DNA from: Escherichia coli
Lineage (GTDB): Bacteria; Pseudomonadota; Gammaproteobacteria; Enterobacterales; Enterobacteriaceae
Assembly (NCBI RefSeq): GCF_044324785.1
Contig: NZ_CP172127.1
DNA length: 64,000 nucleotides
Strand: one strand, 5' to 3'
Within the stretch, counting starts at the first letter, position 1, and each line of letters begins with the position of its first letter. The notes under the pieces were generated by a model. It had not been told where the DNA came from. It ran no database searches and saw only the letters and a list, made by a program, of their open reading frames with translations. Positions 3,923 to 55,458 of the stretch are shown here, piece by piece. A program made the translations under genes and the position numbers.

Positions 3923-5869
3923 TTACTCTCGTGCCAGAGCATCTACTGGATCCAGTCGTGCCGCATTTCGTGCGGGTAACCAGCCAAATAAAATCCCGGT
4001 GACCGTCGAGCAGAGAAACGCCAGCAGCAGCGCCAACGGTGAAAAACCAATCTCCCAGCCGGGTAAGAAAAGCTGTAAGGTGAAAGCAATTAACAGTGAC
4101 AGTGTTATTCCCAACGCGCCACCGACCAGGCAAACCAGTACGGCTTCGATCAGAAACTGTTGCAAAACATCGCTTGCTCGCGCACCTACAGCCATGCGAA
4201 TGCCAATTTCCCGCGTCCGCTCGGTCACTGACACCAGCATAATATTCATTACACCAATACCGCCCACCACTAGCGAAATCACCGCCACCAGCGTCAGAAA
4301 CAGTTGTAAAGTACGTGTGGTCTTTTCAACGGTTTTCAAGACGCCGTCCATGTTCCAGGTAAAGAAATCCTTCTTACCGTGACGCAGTGAAAGTAAACGC
4401 GTGAGTTGCTGTTCCGCCTCGGCGCTGTCAAATCCTTCTTTCACCCTGACAGTAATGGAGTTCAGCCACGACTGGCCCATAACTCGCCCGGACATCGTGC
4501 TGTAAGGTAGCCAGACACGCAGCACTTTACTGCTACCAAACATCGACTGTTTTTCTTCCGCCACACCAATGACTCTGGCGGGCATATTGCCGACCAGAAT
4601 CACCTCGCCAACCACATCTGCTTTATGGGGGAAAAGCTGGCGACGAGTATTACTGTCGAGAACCACGACCTGCGCACGACCGTTCAGCTGCTCCTGATTA
4701 AAGGTGTTCCCTTCACTGAAGGTCATGCCATAGACATTAAAATAATCGCCGCTCACGCCATTGGCACTGGCAGCCACATCAACATTGTTATAACGCAGGC
4801 GCAGGTTTTGCGAGACGGCAGGTGTGGCTGAGGCGACCCACGGTTGTTTTTGGATGGCGATTAAGTCGTCGTACTTCAGCGCCTGCTGATATTGCGGATC
4901 GTCATCGCCAAAATCTTTCCCGGGATAGACATCAATAGTATTCGTACCAATAGAACGAATATCCGCCAGCACCATTTGTTTGGCGGCGTCACCCACCACG
5001 ACAATGGAAACCACCGACGCAATACCGATAATAATCCCCAGCATGGTCAGTAAAGTACGCATTTTATTCGCTGCCAGCGCCCGCCATGCCATCGTCAGCG
5101 CCTCGTTAAAACCACTGACAAACTGCCGCCAGCCAGACGCCGTGTTGACAGCAGGTTCCGTCCCGCCAGCAACATTCACTTTTTCAATGGCGGGAGGATT
5201 GCGCACAATTTCGCCGTCGCGAATTTCGATCACCCGCTCGGCCTGAGCAGCGACCTGCGGATCGTGGGTAACGATAATCACCGTATGCCCGCGATCGCGC
5301 AGCTGATGCAGGATCGCCATCACCTCTTCGCCAGAATGGCTGTCCAGTGCGCCGGTCGGTTCATCGGCAAGAATTACCTGACCGCCGTTCATCAATGCCC
5401 GCGCGATGCTGACGCGCTGTTGCTGACCACCCGAAAGCTGTGCCGGATAATACTCTGTACGGTCTTCCAGCCCCAGTCGTTGCAGCAACTCCTGGGCGCG
5501 AAGCAGCCGCTGTTTCCGCTCAAGACCAGCATAGACGGCGGGTACTTCAACGTTCTGCTCGGCGGTTAAATGCGAAAGCAAATGGTAACGCTGGAAAATA
5601 AAGCCGAAATGCTCGCGGCGTAGTTGCGCCAGCGCATCGGCGTCCAGCGTGGCAACATCCTGACCGGCGACGCGATAGGTGCCGCTGGTGGCCTTATCCA
5701 GACAGCCGAGAATATTCATCAGGGTCGATTTGCCGGAACCCGAAGCGCCAACAATCGCCACCATCTCACCCGCATAAATATCGAGGCTGATGCCCTTCAG
5801 CACCTCAACCTGCTCATCACCGGCAGGATAGCTGCGACGAATATCCTTTAATTCGAGCAAAGGCGTCAT
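3923..5869 (-). CDS. macB: Macrolide export ABC transporter MacB, fused ATPase-permease (648 aa)
   Basis: N-terminal Walker [10 protein letters not shown] and LSGGQQQRV signature, C-terminal permease; overlaps macA by 4 bp. Confidence 0.95.
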
Positions 5870-7095: not shown

Positions 7096-8088
7096 ATGGT
7101 GAAATCGACGTCATGTATAACCATTGATTTCATGAATATGTCGCAGCTAACTGAACGGACCTTTACGCCATCTGAATCTCTCAGCAGCCTGTCACTTTTT
7201 CTTAGTCTGGCACGTGGACAGTGTCGGCCGGGTAAATTCTGGCATCGCCGTAGTTTTCGCCAGAAATTTTTGCTGCGCTCGTTGATTATGCCGCGTTTAA
7301 GCGTTGAGTGGATGAACGAACTTTCCCACTGGCCTAATCTCAATGTGTTGTTAACGCGCCAGCCGCGACTGCCTGTGCGTCTGCATCGCCCTTACCTTGC
7401 GGCGAATCTTAGCCGTAAGCAATTGCTGGAGGCGTTACGTTACCATTATGCGTTACTCCGCGGGTGTATGTCGGCGGAAGAATTCAGCTTATATTTGAAT
7501 ACCCCCGGGCTGCAACTGGCGAAGCTGGAAGGCAAAAACGGCGAGCAGTTCACACTTGAGCTGACCATGATGATCTCAATGGATAAAGAAGGTGACAGCA
7601 CAATCCTGTTCCGCAACAGCGAAGGTATTCCTCTGGCAGAGATCACGTTTACCCTGTGTGAATATCAGGGGAAAAGAACAATGTTTATTGGCGGACTGCA
7701 AGGCGCAAAATGGGAAATTCCACATCAGGAAATCCAGAATGCGACGAAAGCCTGCCACGGGCTATTTCCCAAACGCCTCGTGATGGAAGCGGCCTGTCTG
7801 TTTGCCCAACGTTTGCAGGTAGAGCAGATTATTGCCGTCAGCAATGAAACGCATATTTACCGCAGCCTGCGTTATCGTGATAAAGAAGGCAAGATCCATG
7901 CTGATTACAACGCTTTCTGGGAGTCGGTTGGCGGCGTATGTGATGCTGAACGCCATTACCGCCTTCCAGCACAGATAGCACGAAAAGAGATTGCCGAAAT
8001 CGCCAGTAAAAAACGGGCTGAATACCGTCGGCGCTATGAGATGCTCGACGCTATTCAGCCACAAATGGCCACGATGTTTCGCGGTTAA
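7096..8088 (+). CDS. ybjX: VirK-like protein YbjX (DUF535; 330 aa)
   Basis: Start MVKSTSCITIDF gives the 330-aa K-12 length; stop overlaps the convergent ybjD stop by 4 bp. Confidence 0.88.
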   Translation: MVKSTSCITIDFMNMSQLTERTFTPSESLSSLSLFLSLARGQCRPGKFWHRRSFRQKFLLRSLIMPRLSVEWMNELSHWPNLNVLLTRQPRLPVRLHRPYLAANLSRKQLLEALRYHYALLRGCMSAEEFSLYLNTPGLQLAKLEGKNGEQFTLELTMMISMDKEGDSTILFRNSEGIPLAEITFTLCEYQGKRTMFIGGLQGAKWEIPHQEIQNATKACHGLFPKRLVMEAACLFAQRLQVEQIIAVSNETHIYRSLRYRDKEGKIHADYNAFWESVGGVCDAERHYRLPAQIARKEIAEIASKKRAEYRRRYEMLDAIQPQMATMFRG

Positions 8089-9743
8089 TCCGCGCGACCG
8101 CGCGCCAGCCACAGCACGCGTGAGAACATTTTTTTCAGCAGCGTCGGTACGGAGTCCACACCACGACGTCCGGCCTCCATTGCCACTTCAATGGCAAGAT
8201 CGGGTTTGGAAGAGCGATGGATCGCTTTCGAGATAATTTTGCGCAGATTCATCGGTACATTTTCCGGGATTTGCGCCACGCGGTGGAACACATCGGAAAA
8301 TCCCTGGCGATACATAAAATGTTCCATATCCAGCGCCGGTAACGCCGTTAAATGTTCTCGTTCGGCTTCCCGATCGTTATTCAACAGGCTGCGTACCGTA
8401 GCGGCATATTTCTTCCCTGCTTCATCGCCATCGACCAGTACATGCCATTCAATCCCCATTCGCCGGGCAAATTTAACCAGTGGCTTTAGCCCGGACTGGG
8501 CAAACTCAATGACCTTGATCCCTTCGGCATCAAAATGATGTCCGCACTGACGCGCCAGTTCATTGATAACCCAGGTTTCCGTTTCCCCTTCCACCAGCAG
8601 CCAACAACGGGCAAACAGCGATGACGGACGGTTAAAACGAATGTGAAAGGATATGCGTCGGCTATCTTCGGTACTCAAGCCACTCGGTCCCAGACGCCAG
8701 GCGGCAACGCGAGAGGACTCACGTACCAGTCGGCAAACATGCTCTACCGGCGTTAACGAAAGCAACTCTCCCGAGTTGGTAGTAGCGATGCGCTGCAAGG
8801 GCAGAAGATTCAACAGATGCCAGGCAACTGAAAGCATAATGGGGTGTAAACGGGTTTCTGGATCTTCAATCAGCAATAATGGACGGGCGTCTTTATCCAG
8901 CCGCAATGTGCCTTTTGCCTGCAACAAAGTAGCAAACAGGCCGAGCAAAATAACCCGATACGAGCGCCCACCAGGTCGGTCAATCATCCGGTTGATGATA
9001 TCCAGATAGCGCCAGCTTCGTTGCTCATTGCTGGCTCGCCGCCGCATTAAACGATATCGCGCCTGTCCGGCCCCCTGCTCAGAGAAATAATGCTCAAGCA
9101 GCTGTACCATTGCGGAAAGTCCCTGACGAATCTGTCCATCAGAGAGATTTTGCGGATGTGAGGACAACTCACGGGCGAGGAAATCGAGCTGGCGCGCGGT
9201 GACTTCCACATTAGGGACATTTGGCACCGTGCCGTTACGAATACGGCGCATAAAACGGGCATCACGCAAGCGCAGCACCGGCATTAAACGCACCAGATGG
9301 CGTGCCTGATCGTTAATATCCTCGACATCAATCGGATGTCCGTCTTTATCGAGAAAACTGCGCAGTGTCATCACGCTGCCGTCTTCCGCACTCTCCCCTT
9401 CCAGACGATAAAAAATACGGTGATAGCCATCGGTGCATGGCGTCCAGCACGCTTCCAGTGGCCGATAGCGGCGTACCCGATGTCGGCCTGGCAGCGATTC
9501 GCGGAAGGTCAAAATAATATGCAGATGATGTTCTCGCCCGTTGATATCTCCCGGCGGGAACCAGAAATCGTCGCGCTCAAAATGGTAGAGATCTGATTCT
9601 GGCGATAGCAGCAGGGTTAAGGCGTCCAGCAAGCTGGATTTACCCCACGCGTTCTCCCCAATCAGGACGTTGTTTTGTTCCAGCATCAACGACAAACGGT
9701 TGATACCGCGAAAACCCACAATTTCAACGCGCTCAAGAATCAT
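8085..9743 (-). CDS. ybjD: OLD-family ATPase/TOPRIM protein YbjD (552 aa)
   Basis: N-terminal Walker A GENAWGKSS; 552 aa as in K-12. OLD/TOPRIM assignment is from remembered annotation. Confidence 0.88.
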   Translation of the reverse strand: MILERVEIVGFRGINRLSLMLEQNNVLIGENAWGKSSLLDALTLLLSPESDLYHFERDDFWFPPGDINGREHHLHIILTFRESLPGRHRVRRYRPLEACWTPCTDGYHRIFYRLEGESAEDGSVMTLRSFLDKDGHPIDVEDINDQARHLVRLMPVLRLRDARFMRRIRNGTVPNVPNVEVTARQLDFLARELSSHPQNLSDGQIRQGLSAMVQLLEHYFSEQGAGQARYRLMRRRASNEQRSWRYLDIINRMIDRPGGRSYRVILLGLFATLLQAKGTLRLDKDARPLLLIEDPETRLHPIMLSVAWHLLNLLPLQRIATTNSGELLSLTPVEHVCRLVRESSRVAAWRLGPSGLSTEDSRRISFHIRFNRPSSLFARCWLLVEGETETWVINELARQCGHHFDAEGIKVIEFAQSGLKPLVKFARRMGIEWHVLVDGDEAGKKYAATVRSLLNNDREAEREHLTALPALDMEHFMYRQGFSDVFHRVAQIPENVPMNLRKIISKAIHRSSKPDLAIEVAMEAGRRGVDSVPTLLKKMFSRVLWLARGRAD

Positions 9744-19424: not shown

Positions 19425-20438
19425 ATGAAGGTACTGGTTACCGGCGCCACCAGCGGCTTAGGTCGAAACGCGGTAGAGTTTTTATGCCAGAAAGGCATCA
19501 GCGTGCGAGCGACCGGTCGCAACGAGGCAATGGGTAAATTGCTGGAAAAAATGGGCGCAGAGTTTGTTCCGGCGGATCTGACCGAGCTGGTCTCATCACA
19601 AGCTAAAGTGATGCTCGCGGGCATTGATACGCTGTGGCACTGCTCCAGCTTTACCTCGCCCTGGGGGACACAACAGGCTTTCGATCTGGCTAACGTTCGC
19701 GCCACTCGCCGCCTGGGTGAATGGGCTGTCGCCTGGGGTGTGCGTAACTTTATTCATATCTCTTCACCCTCCCTGTACTTCGATTATCACCACCATCGCG
19801 ATATTAAAGAAGATTTTCGCCCTCACCGCTTCGCTAACGAGTTTGCCCGCAGCAAAGCAGCCAGCGAAGAAGTGATCAATATGCTTTCGCAGGCGAATCC
19901 ACAAACGCGCTTTACTATTCTGCGCCCACAAAGTCTGTTCGGACCGCACGATAAAGTCTTTATCCCCCGTCTGGCGCATATGATGCACCACTACGGCAGC
20001 ATTCTGTTACCACACGGCGGCAGTGCGCTGGTCGATATGACCTACTATGAAAATGCCGTGCACGCCATGTGGCTAGCAAGCCAGGAAGCCTGCGATAAGC
20101 TACCTTCCGGGCGTGTGTACAACATCACCAACGGCGAGCATCGCACACTGCGCAGCATCGTGCAGAAGCTGATCGACGAGTTGAATATTGACTGTCGTAT
20201 TCGTTCCGTCCCCTACCCGATGCTGGATATGATCGCCCGCAGCATGGAGCGTTTAGGCCGCAAGTCAGCAAAAGAGCCGCCGCTGACCCACTACGGCGTC
20301 TCCAAGTTGAATTTTGACTTTACGCTGGATATTACGCGTGCGCAGGAAGAGTTAGGTTATCAACCAGTCCTCACCCTGGATGAAGGTATCGAGAAAACTG
20401 CCGCCTGGCTACGCGACCACGGAAAACTGCCGCGCTAA
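19425..20438 (+). CDS. ybjS: NAD-dependent epimerase/dehydratase-family protein YbjS (337 aa)
   Basis: Rossmann motif [13 protein letters not shown]; stop overlaps the convergent amiD stop. Confidence 0.9.
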
Positions 20439-21265
20439 TCCTGCCCGTATTTCTCCAGCAACGCTTCGGCAATCGCCTGAGTTTCTGCATCCGCTTCGCC
20501 GTTGTATAACGTCGGGCGGAAATGCATCTGGAACGCCATAATCACGCGCCGCTGCTCGCGCGGTGTCATATCAGGTTTAACGTCATAACCGTAGCGCGCC
20601 AAAAGCTCCAGTAATGATGCGGTATCTACCGGTGTGTGCGGCGCGCGCCCGGCAAGGTAAAAGTTCACCCGCTGCGCATCCGGCCAGGCACCAATCCCCT
20701 GCTGCGCCAGTTGTTGCCAGGGGAATAACGGCCCCGGATCGTCTTTGCGCTGCGGCGCAATATCCGCATGCGCCACTACGTTTTCCGGCTTGATGTGATA
20801 ACGGGCAATAATATCTTTCGCCAGCGGAATAAGCGCCTGAATCTGTGCCTGTTCAAACGGGGCAAAATATTTCACTCCGGATGATTTTTGCCAGCCACGG
20901 TTTTCCAGCTCAATGCCAATAGAGGTGTCGTTAAGACGCGTTGCCCCGCGCCAGGCGCTAATCCCCGCATGCCAGGCCAGCTCCTGTTCCGGCACCAGTT
21001 GCCAGATGCGCGGTTTACCGTTGTATCGCGGTGGCACAGCAGGGACCAGATAATGCGAACTGACCTGCTTATCGGTCAGTGTCGCCAGCGAGCTATCAAA
21101 ATCATCTGCGGTGTAGTGGATCACCAGCACTTTAATGCGCGGATACGCCGCCTGTGCCTGGCGTCGGGTATCAAGCTGATATCCCTCTTTCTCGACAATG
21201 CCTTTTTCGCCTGCACACCCTGCCAGTAACAGAGCGACAGCGATCAGCCAGAAGACTCTTCTCAT
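20435..21265 (-). CDS. amiD: N-acetylmuramoyl-L-alanine amidase AmiD, lipoprotein (276 aa)
   Basis: Lipobox LLAGCAG; amidase_2 fold; overlaps ybjQ by 4 bp. Confidence 0.94.
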
Positions 21266-47956: not shown

Positions 47957-48583
47957 ATGATTACGCTGTGGGGTCGGAATAATTCAACCAACGTAAAAAA
48001 AGTATTGCTGACGCTCGAAGAACTGGAACTACCTTATGAGCAAATTCTCGCGGGCCGTGAGTTTGGGATAAATCACGATGCTGATTTTCTGGCGATGAAC
48101 CCTAACGGGCTGGTGCCATTGTTGCGTGACGACGAAAGTGATCTCATTCTTTGGGAATCAAACGCCATTGTCCGCTATCTGGCGGCACAGTACGGGCAAA
48201 AACGCCTGTGGATAGACTCACCGGCACGTCGTGCGGAAGCAGAAAAATGGATGGACTGGGCAAACCAGACGCTCAGTAATGCTCATCGCGGGATCCTGAT
48301 GGGATTAGTCAGAACACCACCGGAAGAGCGCGATCAGGCCGCCATTGATGCCAGTTGCAAAGAGTGCGACGCCCTGTTTGCCCTGCTCGATGCGGAACTG
48401 GCAAAAGTAAAATGGTTCTCTGGCGACGAGTTTGGTGTGGGCGATATCGCTATCGCTCCGTTCATCTACAATTTGTTTAACGTTGGCCTGACCTGGACAC
48501 CACGTTCAAATCTGCAACGCTGGTATCAGCAACTCACTGAACGCCCCGCAGTGCGCAAAGTGGTGATGATTCCCGTTAGCTAA
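47957..48583 (+). CDS. gstB: Glutathione S-transferase GstB/YliJ (208 aa)
   Basis: GST fold; start [13 protein letters not shown]. Confidence 0.94.
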
Positions 48584-49695
48584 TTGCGTGGGCTAACTTT
48601 AAGTAATTCCCCACTGGACTCGTCGGTGAGAACGTATAAATAACCGTCGGGTCCAGTGCGAACATCACGAATTCGCTGCCCTCTGTCCGTTAAAATACGG
48701 CCATCTTCTGTCACTTTGTCGCCGTTGACGCTCATCACAATGACATCTTTATCTTTCAGCGCGCCAATAAATAATTTTTGCTGCCACTGGGGGAATTTAT
48801 CGCTGTTATAGAAGGCCATGCCGCTCACGGCGGGCGAATCTTTCCAGTAAAAAACAGGTTGCTCGGTCCCGGCGACGATCTCCCCTTTCGCTTCCGGTAT
48901 CTTAAAGCCCGAATAGTTGATTCCCCAGGTTGCCAGCGGCCAGCCGTAGTTTTTGCCTTTTTGCGGGATATTAATTTCATCACCACCGCGCGGGCCATGT
49001 TCATTCAGCCACAGTGCATTACTCCACGGATTCATCGCCATTCCTTGCGGATTACGAATGCCATAAGACCAGATCTCGGCGCGCACACCGGATTCCTTTA
49101 CAAAAGGATTATCATCCGGGATTTCGCCCAGGTCGGTCAGACGCACCAGTTTGCCCTGTAATTTATCCAGATCCTGCGCCGTCGGGCGCTGATTGTTTTC
49201 GCCCAGAGCAATAAAAAGATAACCTTTACCGTCGAATACCAGCCGCCCGCCAAAATGGTTGCCGGTAGACAGTTTTGGCATCTGGCGAAAGACGGTGCGG
49301 AAGTCGGTCACTTTTGATAGATCATCACTTAAGCGGCCATAACCCACAGCAGTTCCGGCTTTGCCATCATCGCCAACTTCGGAATAACTTAACCAGATGC
49401 GGCGAGACTGAGCAAAATCAGGCGCTAAAACCACGTCCAGCAGGCCGCCCTGCCCGCGCGCCCAAACGTCCGGCACTCCGGAAAGCGGCGCAGATAATCC
49501 TTTTCCTGCTTGCCAGTGACGCAACTCGCCGCCGCGCAGAGTGATTAACATACCGTGATTATTGGGTAAAAAGGCCAGCGCCCAGGGATGGTCGAGTTTG
49601 TCTTGCAGTACTTCGACATTTACCGTTGCTGGAGCCGCCCAGAGAGCGGAAGAAAGACAAATAAGGGGCACAGAGAAAAAGAATTGTCGATGCAT
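48580..49695 (-). CDS. yliI: Soluble aldose sugar dehydrogenase YliI (PQQ-dependent; 371 aa)
   Basis: Signal peptide; 371 aa; stop overlaps the convergent gstB stop. Confidence 0.94.
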
Positions 49696-53109: not shown

Positions 53110-55458
53110 CTACTCTTTTACTAATTTTCCACTTTTATCCCAGGCGGAGAATGGCATGGGTTTCTGGTACAGATACCCCTGAGCCTGAACACATCCTAAT
53201 TTGATTAATTCGCGCGCAACGTCTTCGCTCTCTACGCCTTCCGCAATCACCGGGATCCGGTTATAGCGTGCCAGATCGAAAATAATGCGCACAATTTTTC
53301 CCGCAGTACCGAAAATATCGCCGGTAAATTGCGAGTCCACTTTTATGCTATCTGGATTAATTTCATAAAAACGTTTCAGGTTTGACAAACCGGTGCCAAA
53401 GTCATCAATCGATATCCGTACCCCTTGTTTACGCAGTTGTTCAATATTGAGATAAAAATGTTCATTAATTCGCTCGATCACGGTTTCAGTGATCTCAACA
53501 CAGAGGCTGTTCGCCTTCAGGCCATTTTCTTTCATGATGGTGGTAAAACGCTCATGAAAGTGCGGTTCGTTTAACTGCCAGGGCGAAACATTAATATGCA
53601 GTAAGAAATCATCCTTCAGCGATGCACGCTGACTAAAATGTCTGAATTCACCCATTGCCGTTTTAATAATCTGATAACCCAGCTCATTGATAAACCCGAT
53701 ATCTTCAGCAATGGTAATGAACTTCAGCGGTGAAATGATCCCCCGCTCCGCAGACACCCAACGGCACAACGCCTCCGCGCCCAGAATGGTGCGGGTGTTA
53801 ATATCAACGATCGGCTGATAGACCAGGAATAGTTCGCCAATTTCCATTGCATGGCGAATATTACGCGCAATCCAGATATTCTCTTCTATTTCGTTGAGTT
53901 TCGCGTCATCACAGAAAATAAACTCGGAGAACATATGATCACGGATACTGGAAATCGCCAGTTTCAGTTTTTCTGCGTAACTCCAGGCGTTTTCTCCCTG
54001 CAAAGGTTCACAAATGGCAGACTTATGGATGCGCAGATTGCGGTAGCCAAAGCTGCTGTCAAAATCGTTTACCATCGCTATTTTACGGGTAAATGTCTGT
54101 ACATTTTCCCGGCACAGAAGTAAATAGAGATCGGCATTAAATGTCACGATATCGCAGCATTGCGCATATTTCTCGGCAATTCGCTGACACAATTTCCTGA
54201 CGATTTTATTGCGTTCATCAACACCAAACACCGCTTCCACGGCTTCCAGACCACACAGTTTGATGATCCCCACAGCCAGATACTGATTATTGTTGGACTC
54301 AATAATCGCCATATTTTTAATAAAACCGCTTTCCTGATCGTAAGAGATCAGTGAGAGCAATTTATTTGACCGTTCAATTTCGGCATCTTTCATTTCCGCG
54401 ATCGAATTTTTGATGCTGATAATCTCTTTCGCATCGCCTTCGCGAATTTTCAGAGCCTCGATTTGATCCGTTGAGTCAGGCAAAAACGCCAGCGTATTAA
54501 CCAGCTCTGTCATTTCAGAAAATTGCCGACGGAACACACGAGTGGTCATTAAATAAACCACCAGCAATACGATAATAATGAAAGCAAACGGCAGATAAAA
54601 AAGTTTATCTGATGCGTTCAATAAATTACCACCAGGATAATAAAAATAGATTTCGAATAATGCGTTGTTTGGCACCGCTGATGTTTTTTCGATATATTCA
54701 GTATCGACAGAATCAATAATATTATAATTACCTTCGCTATTATAAATAATTAGTTTTTCACGAGCGAGTTGATTCTTGGCAATGATCTCATGGCCTTGTT
54801 TTAAAAATAGAACTTCATCATTAGCGCTGATTTGATCAAGATACTAGTTCAGATATCGCCAGTTTAAATCGACATGAATTTTATCCACCGCTAACAAATC
54901 GTGATCTTTGCCGTTGATGTGTAGCGTAAAAGAGATACATTTTTTACCCGGACGATCAAAGCAATTGTATGCCGGATTCCAGCTGTTGTTAGAGTCATCT
55001 GAAGCCATCGACCACGGTCGTTTCGATGGGTTAAAATCGGCAAAAATAACCCGCCCTGACTCGTCGACAAGCGGTCCATTTACTTGTTCCTGATGATAAA
55101 CAACGATTTTATCATTCGCCCTCCGCGAAAAAAGATAATATTTATTATCATCAAGTACCAGTCCCACCGAGTCTAAAAATGGCATCATTTCCATTTTAAG
55201 AATCACGGCGCGTTGAATCTCCTCTGTATTTTTTAATAAATACAGTGAGTCCTTTAATGTCAGGGCCGAACGTTCAATATCTTTAAAGAAATAGCCAACG
55301 TTTTTCTGAATAAGTTCAAAGCGGCTATCGGCACGTTTTACCGCGCGCTCCGATACCAGTTGATAGTTAATGATGAAAAAAAGACCAATAAATGACAGTG
55401 CTGCCAATAAAAATAAAATTATCAGCCTTATCTTTATCTTTTCGTATAAACTCAGCAT
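53110..55458 (-). pseudogene. pdeI: c-di-GMP phosphodiesterase PdeI/YliE interrupted by one in-frame TAG (codon 205; 54844-54846)
   Basis: Two same-frame ORFs (204 codons, TAG, 577 codons) add up to exactly the 782-codon K-12 length; the downstream part retains the EAL motif (GAEALCRW). Confidence 0.8.

What the first reader, a model, noticed from the sequence alone, without database searches (positions are those of the whole stretch)
8085..8088. Several convergent gene pairs share overlapping stop codons
ybjX/ybjD (8085-8088), ybjS/amiD (20435-20438) and gstB/yliI (48580-48583) each end in a 4-bp stop-stop overlap with no intergenic terminator. That implies mutual 3' UTR antisense transcription and possible transcriptional interference.
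Basis: seen in the sequence. Interest (0 to 1): 0.15.

Follow-up and report, generated by a model that had tools for sequence, protein, structure and literature searches.

The report
Convergent genes sharing overlapping stop codons
Three pairs of E. coli genes that run towards each other end in a shared four-base stretch holding both stop codons; this is the commonest layout for tightly packed convergent genes, and the antisense read-through it causes has already been published for these same pairs.

Summary
ybjX/ybjD (TTAA, 8085-8088), ybjS/amiD (CTAA, 20435-20438) and gstB/yliI (CTAA, 48580-48583) each place both stop codons in one tetramer, and RefSeq annotates them the same way.

It is not unusual. 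In six random 50-kb stretches of E. coli K-12, 7 of 40 convergent gene pairs had exactly this 4-bp overlap, and it was the most frequent spacing. That predicts about 1.5 per 64 kb, so three gives P = 0.19. Only YTAR tetramers can hold two opposed stop codons, which explains the preference.

All three pairs are in the 2025 ExcludonFinder list of 165 convergent transcript overlaps in MG1655. Adams et al. 2021 mapped Rho-dependent termination regions 375-882 nt inside the partner gene for four of the six transcripts. I found no terminator at or near any junction.

The layout is old. ybjD/ybjX keeps the 4-bp overlap in 61 of 62 Enterobacteriaceae species that have both genes, using all four legal tetramers. 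The gstB/yliI junction varies between -4, 0 and +4. One amiD/ybjS overlap was split by a REP insertion.

Functional interference between the partners is untested. Verdict: real, ordinary, already known.

The parts
7132..8088 (+). ybjX coding sequence (VirK/YbjX family, DUF535), stop TAA at 8086-8088
   Evidence: ORF list; PCN033 annotation; Pfam DUF535 E=3e-102
8085..9743 (-). ybjD coding sequence (OLD-family ATPase/Toprim nuclease), stop TAA = reverse complement of 8085-8087
   Evidence: ORF list; annotation; Pfam DUF2813 and OLD-like TOPRIM
8085..8088 (.). TTAA tetramer holding both stop codons of ybjX and ybjD
   Evidence: Sequence. Conserved as a YTAR tetramer in 61 of 62 Enterobacteriaceae species that have both genes
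8089..8970 (+). Stretch antisense to ybjD that the ybjX transcript is reported to cover before Rho-dependent termination. The end point is mapped from K-12 coordinate 917246 and is approximate, because the source used 800-nt windows
   Evidence: Adams et al. 2021 supplementary file 2: Rho score 15.9, p = 7e-53, reads 299 upstream and 18 downstream without bicyclomycin, 568 and 545 with it. Coordinates mapped. C exceeds G in 7 of 10 100-nt bins
19425..20438 (+). ybjS coding sequence (NAD-dependent epimerase family), stop TAA at 20436-20438
   Evidence: ORF list; start [13 protein letters not shown]; annotation
20435..21265 (-). amiD coding sequence (N-acetylmuramoyl-L-alanine amidase), stop TAG = reverse complement of 20435-20437. 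Its start also overlaps ybjQ by 4 bp (21262-21265)
   Evidence: ORF list; annotation; homologues
20435..20438 (.). CTAA tetramer holding both stop codons of ybjS and amiD
   Evidence: Sequence. Conserved at -4 in Citrobacter amalonaticus and one further lineage; split by a REP insertion in one lineage
20439..21089 (+). Stretch antisense to amiD covered by ybjS read-through up to the reported Rho termination region (K-12 905089, approximate)
   Evidence: Adams et al. 2021 supplementary file 2, Rho score 3.9, p = 2.6e-10; mapping
20060..20434 (-). Stretch antisense to ybjS covered by amiD read-through up to the reported Rho termination region (K-12 906118, approximate)
   Evidence: Adams et al. 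2021 supplementary file 2, Rho score 4.3, p = 4.9e-6; mapping
47957..48583 (+). gstB coding sequence (glutathione S-transferase), stop TAA at 48581-48583
   Evidence: ORF list; annotation; 208-aa homologues
48580..49695 (-). yliI coding sequence (PQQ-dependent aldose sugar dehydrogenase), stop TAG = reverse complement of 48580-48582
   Evidence: ORF list; annotation; GSDH Pfam family on orthologues
48580..48583 (.). CTAA tetramer holding both stop codons of gstB and yliI
   Evidence: Sequence. Spacing is -4 in Salmonella, C. koseri and C. freundii; 0 in Cronobacter and Enterobacter sp.; +4 in E. fergusonii
48584..49031 (+). Stretch antisense to yliI covered by gstB read-through up to the reported Rho termination region (K-12 879406, approximate)
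   Evidence: Adams et al. 2021 supplementary file 2, Rho score 3.8, p = 1.4e-6; mapping; C exceeds G in 9 of 10 100-nt bins, equal in one

Best explanation
These are ordinary 4-bp tail-to-tail gene overlaps. They follow from how stop codons read on the opposite strand, not from a dedicated element.

A gene that ends pyrimidine-TAA or pyrimidine-TAG automatically carries a TAA or TAG stop on the opposite strand, shifted by one base. A convergent neighbour that arrives in that frame with no spacer must end there. TTAA, TTAG, CTAA and CTAG are the only tetramers that can hold two opposed stops, and 4 bp is the shortest possible convergent overlap.

Once formed, the layout is hard to undo. Any change to the two shared bases damages one protein's end, so it persists.

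The consequence is that neither gene has an intergenic terminator. RNA polymerase leaves the stop codon and enters the partner gene in antisense. The RNA there is untranslated and, on the window + strand, C-rich. Rho ends transcription diffusely a few hundred nucleotides further on. The two mRNAs therefore have complementary 3' tails whenever both genes are on.

What is shown: the geometry, its frequency, its conservation and the lack of junction terminators were shown here. The transcript overlap and the Rho dependence are shown in the literature. Whether the overlap has any regulatory effect on either partner is inference only; I consider it probably small.
For: **Geometry**
- establish the three overlaps.

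**Frequency**
- -4 is the commonest convergent spacing in K-12: 7 of 40 sampled pairs, against 3 of 10 in the window (P = 0.19-0.25).
- Lillo & Krakauer 2007 (PMC2174442) describe a jump at length 4 in convergent overlaps and name the same four tetramers.

**The opposite-strand stop acts as a barrier to the partner's reading frame**
- YbjD ends [R/K]-A-D-stop in all 80 species examined.
- Its YTAR context is kept in 17 of 18 species that lack ybjX, so it does not depend on the partner.
- The YbjX tail varies greatly in sequence yet ends at that antisense stop in 61 of 62 species. All four legal tetramers occur: 32 TTAA, 21 TTAG, 5 CTAA, 3 CTAG.
- Where gstB uses TGA, which cannot take part in a 4-bp overlap, the two stops simply abut. 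The YliI tail after LLKVSP varies by 2-4 residues.

**No junction terminator**
-.

**Rho termination inside the partner and transcript overlap**
- PMC7815308 supplementary file 2.
- PMC12288877 Table 1.
- C exceeds G downstream of the three + strand stops.
Against: - Near-perfect conservation of the ybjD/ybjX overlap (61 of 62) is also what selection for coupled expression would produce. ExcludonFinder reports higher synteny for transcript-overlapping pairs in general.
- No Rho region is reported downstream of ybjD or yliI, so how those two transcripts end is unknown.
- The Rho regions come from 800-nt windows in one growth condition in K-12, not in this strain. Part of the antisense signal over ybjD could come from an internal promoter, although no promoter-like site was found on that strand between 8088 and 8970.
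- The genome-wide rate rests on a 300-kb sample with a wide confidence interval.
Confidence: 0.85

Rival explanations
1. The overlaps are selected regulatory modules (true excludons). Transcription of one gene represses its partner through polymerase collision or RNase III cleavage of the paired 3' tails, giving mutually exclusive expression. For example, ybjX expression would hold down the OLD-family nuclease ybjD.
For: - All three pairs are in the ExcludonFinder list.
- That paper reports higher synteny for transcript-overlapping pairs.
- The ybjD/ybjX overlap is conserved in 61 of 62 species.
- The antisense signal over ybjD is strong: 299 reads in the 800 nt before the Rho site, Rho score 15.9.
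Against: - With overlapping coding sequences, the ExcludonFinder criterion is met almost automatically once both genes are expressed. All 7 sampled -4 pairs are in that list.
- No functional link is known between the partners.
- The YTAR context persists without ybjX, and 18 of 80 species have dropped ybjX from this position.
- The gstB/yliI junction drifts between -4, 0 and +4. A REP insertion split amiD/ybjS while leaving both proteins at the same lengths.
- No anticorrelated expression data for these pairs were found.
Confidence: 0.1
2. The junction itself is an overlapping bidirectional terminator of the kind described by Ju et al. 2019. A hairpin at the shared stops pauses polymerase, and head-on collisions release both transcripts there, so overlap is limited to a few tens of nucleotides.
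For: - A small hairpin, CGCGG-TTAAT-CCGCG, spans the ybjX/ybjD stops at 8080-8094.
- The collision model is described for E. coli convergent pairs in 10.1101/2022.10.23.513370.
Against: - Junction folds are no more stable than shuffles.
- The hairpin is confined to Escherichia and is lost in Citrobacter and Enterobacter.
- No hairpin was seen at the other two junctions.
- Adams et al. find bicyclomycin-sensitive read-through 375-882 nt beyond the stops and no curated 3' ends near the junctions.
- Collision terminators are described as Rho-independent.
Confidence: 0.04
3. The overlaps are annotation or chance artefacts. One ORF of each pair is not a real gene or really ends earlier.
For: Long spurious antisense ORFs are common in this window.
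Against: - All six are named genes in RefSeq K-12 and PCN033.
- Each has a Pfam family or a large set of full-length homologues.
- A stop codon position is fixed by the reading frame and does not depend on start-codon choice.
- Orthologues end at the same place in dozens of species.
Confidence: 0.01

Closest known systems
4-bp tail-to-tail (convergent) gene overlaps of prokaryotes, tetramers CTAA/TTAA/CTAG/TTAG (Lillo & Krakauer 2007, PMC2174442; earlier surveys by Fukuda 2003 and Johnson & Chisholm 2004, cited in PMC10666635)
   Same: Geometry, tetramer set and conservation are the same, and so is the point that any terminator must lie inside the partner's coding sequence. The three sites are plain members of this class.
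   Different: Nothing material. The only update is the count. Current K-12 annotation suggests roughly a hundred such pairs. The 2007 paper counted 58 convergent overlaps of all lengths in E. coli; for its cross-species dataset it states it used only gene pairs in which both genes were in COG.
Convergent excludons / overlapping 3' UTRs (ExcludonFinder, Sanmartin et al. 2025, PMC12288877)
   Same: yliI-gstB, amiD-ybjS and ybjD-ybjX are named in the paper's Table 1 as convergent transcript overlaps seen in at least half of 58 RNA-seq samples.
   Different: The defining functional property of an excludon is that one gene's expression suppresses the other's. That has not been shown for these pairs. 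Inclusion is close to automatic when the coding sequences themselves overlap.
Rho-dependent termination of untranslated antisense read-through (Adams et al. 2021, PMC7815308)
   Same: Bicyclomycin-sensitive termination regions lie antisense to ybjD, amiD, ybjS and yliI. Similar regions lie antisense to the partners of non-overlapping convergent pairs in the same window: dacC/deoR both ways, mdfA and macB.
   Different: No Rho region is reported downstream of ybjD or yliI. The positions have roughly 800-nt resolution.
Overlapping bidirectional terminators driven by polymerase collision (Ju et al. 2019, described in 10.1101/2022.10.23.513370; model locus ynaJ-uspE)
   Same: Convergent genes with no room for two separate terminators.
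   Different: Those elements sit in a short intergenic region, encode a hairpin, give uniform 3' ends and are Rho-independent. Here there is no intergenic DNA, no significant hairpin and no mapped 3' ends, and read-through is Rho-sensitive.
mscL-arfA, another K-12 convergent pair with a 4-bp stop overlap
   Same: Same -4 geometry, and also in the ExcludonFinder list.
   Different: From my own knowledge, not tested here: the arfA 3' hairpin is cut by RNase III to give a non-stop mRNA with a known regulatory role. No comparable structure or role is seen at the three sites in this window.

Membership tests
4-bp convergent gene overlap | Two protein-coding genes on opposite strands whose 3' ends meet | tested here: met
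   ORF list; RefSeq annotation of PCN033 and K-12
4-bp convergent gene overlap | Both stop codons contained in one YTAR tetramer (TTAA, TTAG, CTAA or CTAG) | tested here: met
   TTAA at 8085-8088, CTAA at 20435-20438, CTAA at 48580-48583
4-bp convergent gene overlap | Both ORFs are real genes with homologues that end at the same position | tested here: met
   Pfam hits. 80 YbjD and 62 YbjX-like orthologues. AmiD/YbjS and GstB/YliI orthologous loci
Convergent excludon | Transcripts of the two genes overlap on opposite strands in strand-specific RNA-seq | not testable with these tools
   No expression data can be run here. Reported for all three pairs in MG1655 by PMC12288877 Table 1
Convergent excludon | Expression of one partner lowers expression of the other (mutually exclusive expression, RNase III processing of the duplex) | not testable with these tools
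   No pair-specific data found. The paper's supplementary tables are not held
Rho-dependent terminator downstream of each gene | Read-through increases when Rho is inhibited with bicyclomycin | not testable with these tools
   Reported for 4 of 6 transcript directions in PMC7815308 supplementary file 2. Not reported downstream of ybjD or yliI
Rho-dependent terminator downstream of each gene | Untranslated, C-rich and G-poor RNA downstream of the stop codon (rut-like composition) | tested here: inconclusive
   C exceeds G in most 100-nt bins downstream of ybjX, ybjS and gstB. Composition is balanced or G-rich downstream of ybjD, amiD and yliI. Composition alone does not define a rut site
Intrinsic or bidirectional hairpin terminator at the junction | Stable G+C-rich hairpin, with a U-tract for intrinsic terminators, at or just past the stop codons | tested here: not met
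   Weak matches only, not above shuffles. Fold z-scores between -1.5 and +1.5. Terminator-like hairpins in 12 of 61 and 4 of 61 species against 20 of 244 control segments
Intrinsic or bidirectional hairpin terminator at the junction | Discrete, reproducible RNA 3' ends at the junction | not testable with these tools
   No curated Term-seq 3' end within about 300-400 nt of any junction in PMC7815308 supplementary files 1 and 3. Low expression could also explain their absence

The most novel reading that the evidence does not exclude
The ybjD/ybjX overlap has been held at exactly 4 bp across Enterobacteriaceae while the YbjX sequence diverged to 45-60% identity. It could be a selected control device. 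Read-through from ybjX runs about 880 nt antisense into ybjD before Rho stops it. That read-through would hold down expression of the OLD-family nuclease YbjD, which has anti-phage phenotypes when induced. Rho activity or ybjX induction would then set the level of a defence nuclease.
Probability: 0.06. Interest if true: 0.4.

Novelty: already known. Interest (0 to 1): 0.07.

Why it matters
It matters little beyond housekeeping. The three sites are textbook cases of how compact bacterial genomes pack convergent genes, and of why Rho is needed to stop transcription running antisense into a neighbour.

There are two practical points.
- Knock-outs, tags or terminators engineered at the 3' end of any of these six genes will also alter the partner's stop codon or 3' UTR.
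- Lists of transcript-overlapping gene pairs are dominated by such zero-spacer pairs. Being on such a list should not be read as evidence of regulation.

The conservation data give a clear illustration of the barrier effect. YbjD's invariant Asp-stop ending fixes where a fast-evolving neighbour must end.

Tried and rejected
- **Intrinsic terminators hidden in the partner gene.** The scans found weak matches 56 nt past the ybjD stop (8029-8012, - strand) and just past the amiD stop (20417-20400, - strand). Counts were not clearly above shuffles. The ybjD-side hairpin occurs in only 9 of 61 species. Rejected as conserved terminators.
- **Junction hairpins as collision terminators.** Folding of 121-nt stretches on both strands gave z-scores from -1.5 to +1.5. 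Rejected.
- **Frequency from the 2007 literature.** Taking 58 convergent overlaps in E. coli with about 36% of them 4 bp would have made three in one window look unusual, at P of roughly 0.003 by my own arithmetic. Direct sampling of current annotation showed the true rate is about five times higher, so I dropped the clustering idea.
- **Pair-specific overlap lengths and 3' ends.** The supplements of ExcludonFinder and of Dar & Sorek 2018 are not held. My guessed PMC id for Ju et al. 2019 was not found.
- **AmiD homologue search.** One search returned almost only E. coli and Citrobacter amalonaticus. Conservation of the amiD/ybjS overlap therefore rests on only four loci.
- **Error in my first script.** It misplaced the ybjX stop in five Kluyvera-group loci and reported gaps of about 1130 bp. 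A direct ORF check showed -4 in all five.

Full report
**What is there**

The window is an E. coli chromosome segment running from clpA to moeA. It is 99.6% identical to strain PCN033 over the 2.7-kb ybjX-ybjD stretch that was compared, and in reverse orientation to K-12.

At the three coordinates given, a + strand ORF and a - strand ORF end within one tetramer:
- ybjX/ybjD share TTAA at 8085-8088.
- ybjS/amiD share CTAA at 20435-20438.
- gstB/yliI share CTAA at 48580-48583.

RefSeq annotates the same six genes with the same 4-bp overlaps in PCN033 and in K-12 MG1655. All six are real genes. YbjX is a DUF535/VirK-family protein and YbjD is an OLD-family ATPase/Toprim protein. AmiD, YbjS, GstB and YliI have many full-length homologues.

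**Is it more than chance?**

There are two separate questions.

*Is a spacing of exactly -4 favoured?* Yes, for a known reason.
- A 4-nt string can hold a + strand stop at positions 2-4 and a - strand stop at positions 1-3 only if it is TTAA, TTAG, CTAA or CTAG. Overlaps of 1-3 nt are impossible.
- Lillo & Krakauer 2007 describe this jump at length 4 and list these four tetramers (PMC2174442).

*Are three such pairs in 64 kb unusual?* No.
- I read six random 50-kb stretches of K-12 annotation and found 40 convergent CDS pairs.
- Seven of them are at exactly -4: dkgB/yafC, yafS/rnhA, zapC/ycbX, yccX/tusE, xseA/yfgJ, mscL/arfA and zraR/purD.
- Six have longer overlaps (-25 to -41). Four are spaced +1 to +8. 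The rest are spaced +31 to +257.
- That is 2.3 per 100 kb, or about 108 per genome (95% CI 44-223).
- The expectation for 64 kb is 1.5, so P(>=3) = 0.19. For 3 of the window's 10 convergent pairs the binomial gives P = 0.25.
- An estimate based only on the 2007 count would have wrongly suggested clustering.

**Why the geometry arises and persists**

*ybjD/ybjX.* A scan of one genome per species returned 80 Enterobacteriaceae loci with ybjD at 80-99% identity.
- 62 of them have a convergent ybjX-like gene downstream, and 61 of those 62 have the exact 4-bp overlap. The exception is Buttiauxella, at +12.
- All four legal tetramers occur: 32 TTAA, 21 TTAG, 5 CTAA, 3 CTAG.
- YbjD ends [R/K]-A-D-stop in all 80 species. 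An Asp codon (GAY) followed by TAR always spells a stop on the opposite strand.
- That context is kept in 17 of the 18 species where ybjX is absent, so it does not exist for the partner's sake.
- The last five YbjX residues differ in almost every species, and the protein is only 45-60% identical between genera. It still always ends at that opposite-strand stop.
- So the conserved end of one gene fixes where the fast-evolving neighbour must end, and there is no spacer to lose.

*gstB/yliI* shows the same logic from the other side.
- The spacing is -4 in Salmonella, C. koseri and C. freundii.
- It is 0 in Cronobacter and Enterobacter sp. There gstB uses TGA, which cannot share bases with an opposed stop.
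- It is +4 in E. fergusonii.
- The YliI tail after LLKVSP varies by 2-4 residues.

*amiD/ybjS.*
- The overlap is kept in Citrobacter amalonaticus (TTAG) and in one further lineage (TTAA).
- In one metagenomic relative, a 106-bp insert with two REP-like palindromes, flanked by a 9-bp direct repeat GGTTAACGC, separated the genes. The duplicated repeat restores both stops.
- This is a natural example of how such an overlap can be undone without changing the length of either protein.

**What follows for transcription**

I found no terminator at or near any junction.
- Consensus scans give only weak matches at about the rate seen in shuffles.
- The six junction folds are no more stable than shuffles.
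- The small hairpin around the ybjX/ybjD stops (8080-8094) is confined to Escherichia.
- Across 61 species, terminator-like hairpins within 160 nt of the stops occur in 12 loci (ybjD side) and 4 loci (ybjX side). The control was 20 of 244 segments.

Published experiments give the rest.
- Adams et al. 2021 (PMC7815308, supplementary file 2) list bicyclomycin-sensitive Rho termination regions at four K-12 positions:

| K-12 position and strand | Antisense to | Rho score | Distance past the shared stop | Gene whose stop it follows | Approx. window position |
|---|---|---|---|---|---|
| 917246 (-) | ybjD | 15.9 (p = 7e-53) | 882 nt | ybjX | 8970 |
| 905089 (-) | amiD | 3.9 | 651 nt | ybjS | 21089 |
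| 906118 (+) | ybjS | 4.3 | 375 nt | amiD | 20060 |
| 879406 (-) | yliI | 3.8 | 448 nt | gstB | 49031 |

- Their curated Term-seq list has no 3' end within about 300-400 nt of any junction.
- RNA downstream of the three window + strand stops is C-rich. That fits Rho loading on untranslated antisense RNA.
- Similar Rho regions lie antisense to the partners of ordinary, non-overlapping convergent pairs in the same window: dacC/deoR, mdfA and macB. The behaviour is general.
- ExcludonFinder (PMC12288877) lists all three pairs among 165 convergent transcript overlaps in MG1655.
- All seven -4 pairs in my sample are also in that list. Zero-spacer pairs therefore seem to qualify almost automatically.

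**Verdict on the interpretation**

Interference between the partners remains untested.

The reading that the overlaps are selected regulatory modules is weakened by several findings:
- The YTAR context does not depend on the partner.
- 18 of 80 species have lost ybjX from beside ybjD.
- The gstB/yliI junction drifts between spacings.
- A REP insertion was tolerated at amiD/ybjS.
- No functional link is known within any pair.

A collision-type bidirectional terminator does not fit the Rho sensitivity or the lack of a hairpin.

**Novelty and score**

The geometry, its cause, the transcript overlap at these very pairs and the Rho dependence are all in the literature. This is already known and of low interest.

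The least ordinary reading still open is that ybjX read-through is used to restrain the OLD-family nuclease YbjD, which shows anti-phage phenotypes when induced (PMC13261556). I give that about 6%.

Noticed in passing
L086:3331-3437 (ENA metagenome contig, AmiD 86% identical): The amiD/ybjS stop overlap is split by a 106-bp insert carrying two REP-like palindromes (GCCTGATGG...CTTATCAGGCCTAC and GTAGGCCGGATAAGGCG...CGCCATCCGGCA). The insert is flanked by a 9-bp direct repeat GGTTAACGC, which restores both stop codons. It looks like a REP/BIME insertion with target duplication at a TTAA.
   Followed up: partly
L004-L083 (ybjD loci from 80 Enterobacteriaceae species): YbjD is 80-99% identical across genera, while the convergent YbjX-like neighbour falls to 45-60% outside Escherichia and has a highly variable C-terminal tail. 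ybjX is absent from beside ybjD in 18 species (Klebsiella, Raoultella, Superficieibacter, some Enterobacter). This could be fast evolution or replacement by a paralogue of the VirK/DUF535 family.
   Followed up: partly
window 21796-23598 (- strand): A 600-aa ORF with pentapeptide-repeat Pfam hits lies between ybjQ and ybjP. K-12 has only 125 bp there. PCN033 annotates a truncated pentapeptide-repeat pseudogene at the same place. This is a strain-variable insertion next to the amiD operon.
   Followed up: partly
window 53110-55458 (- strand): pdeI (c-di-GMP phosphodiesterase) carries an in-frame stop at codon 205, so it is a pseudogene in this strain, as it is annotated in PCN033.
   Followed up: yes
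window 8089-8970, 20439-21089, 48584-49031 (+ strand): In all three pairs the transcript that reads furthest into its partner is the one on the window + strand (the K-12 - strand). Those downstream RNAs are the C-rich ones. The asymmetry may reflect strand compositional skew, not anything specific to these genes.
   Followed up: no
window 21262-21265 and 5866-5869: Co-directional 4-bp start/stop overlaps occur at ybjQ/amiD and macA/macB. amiD therefore shares bases with a neighbour at both of its ends.
   Followed up: no
K-12 sample regions (L094-L099): All 7 sampled -4 pairs, all 6 pairs with longer convergent overlaps, and two of the four pairs spaced +1 to +8 appear in the published list of 165 E. 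coli convergent 'excludons'. That list therefore seems to consist largely of zero-spacer gene pairs.
   Followed up: partly
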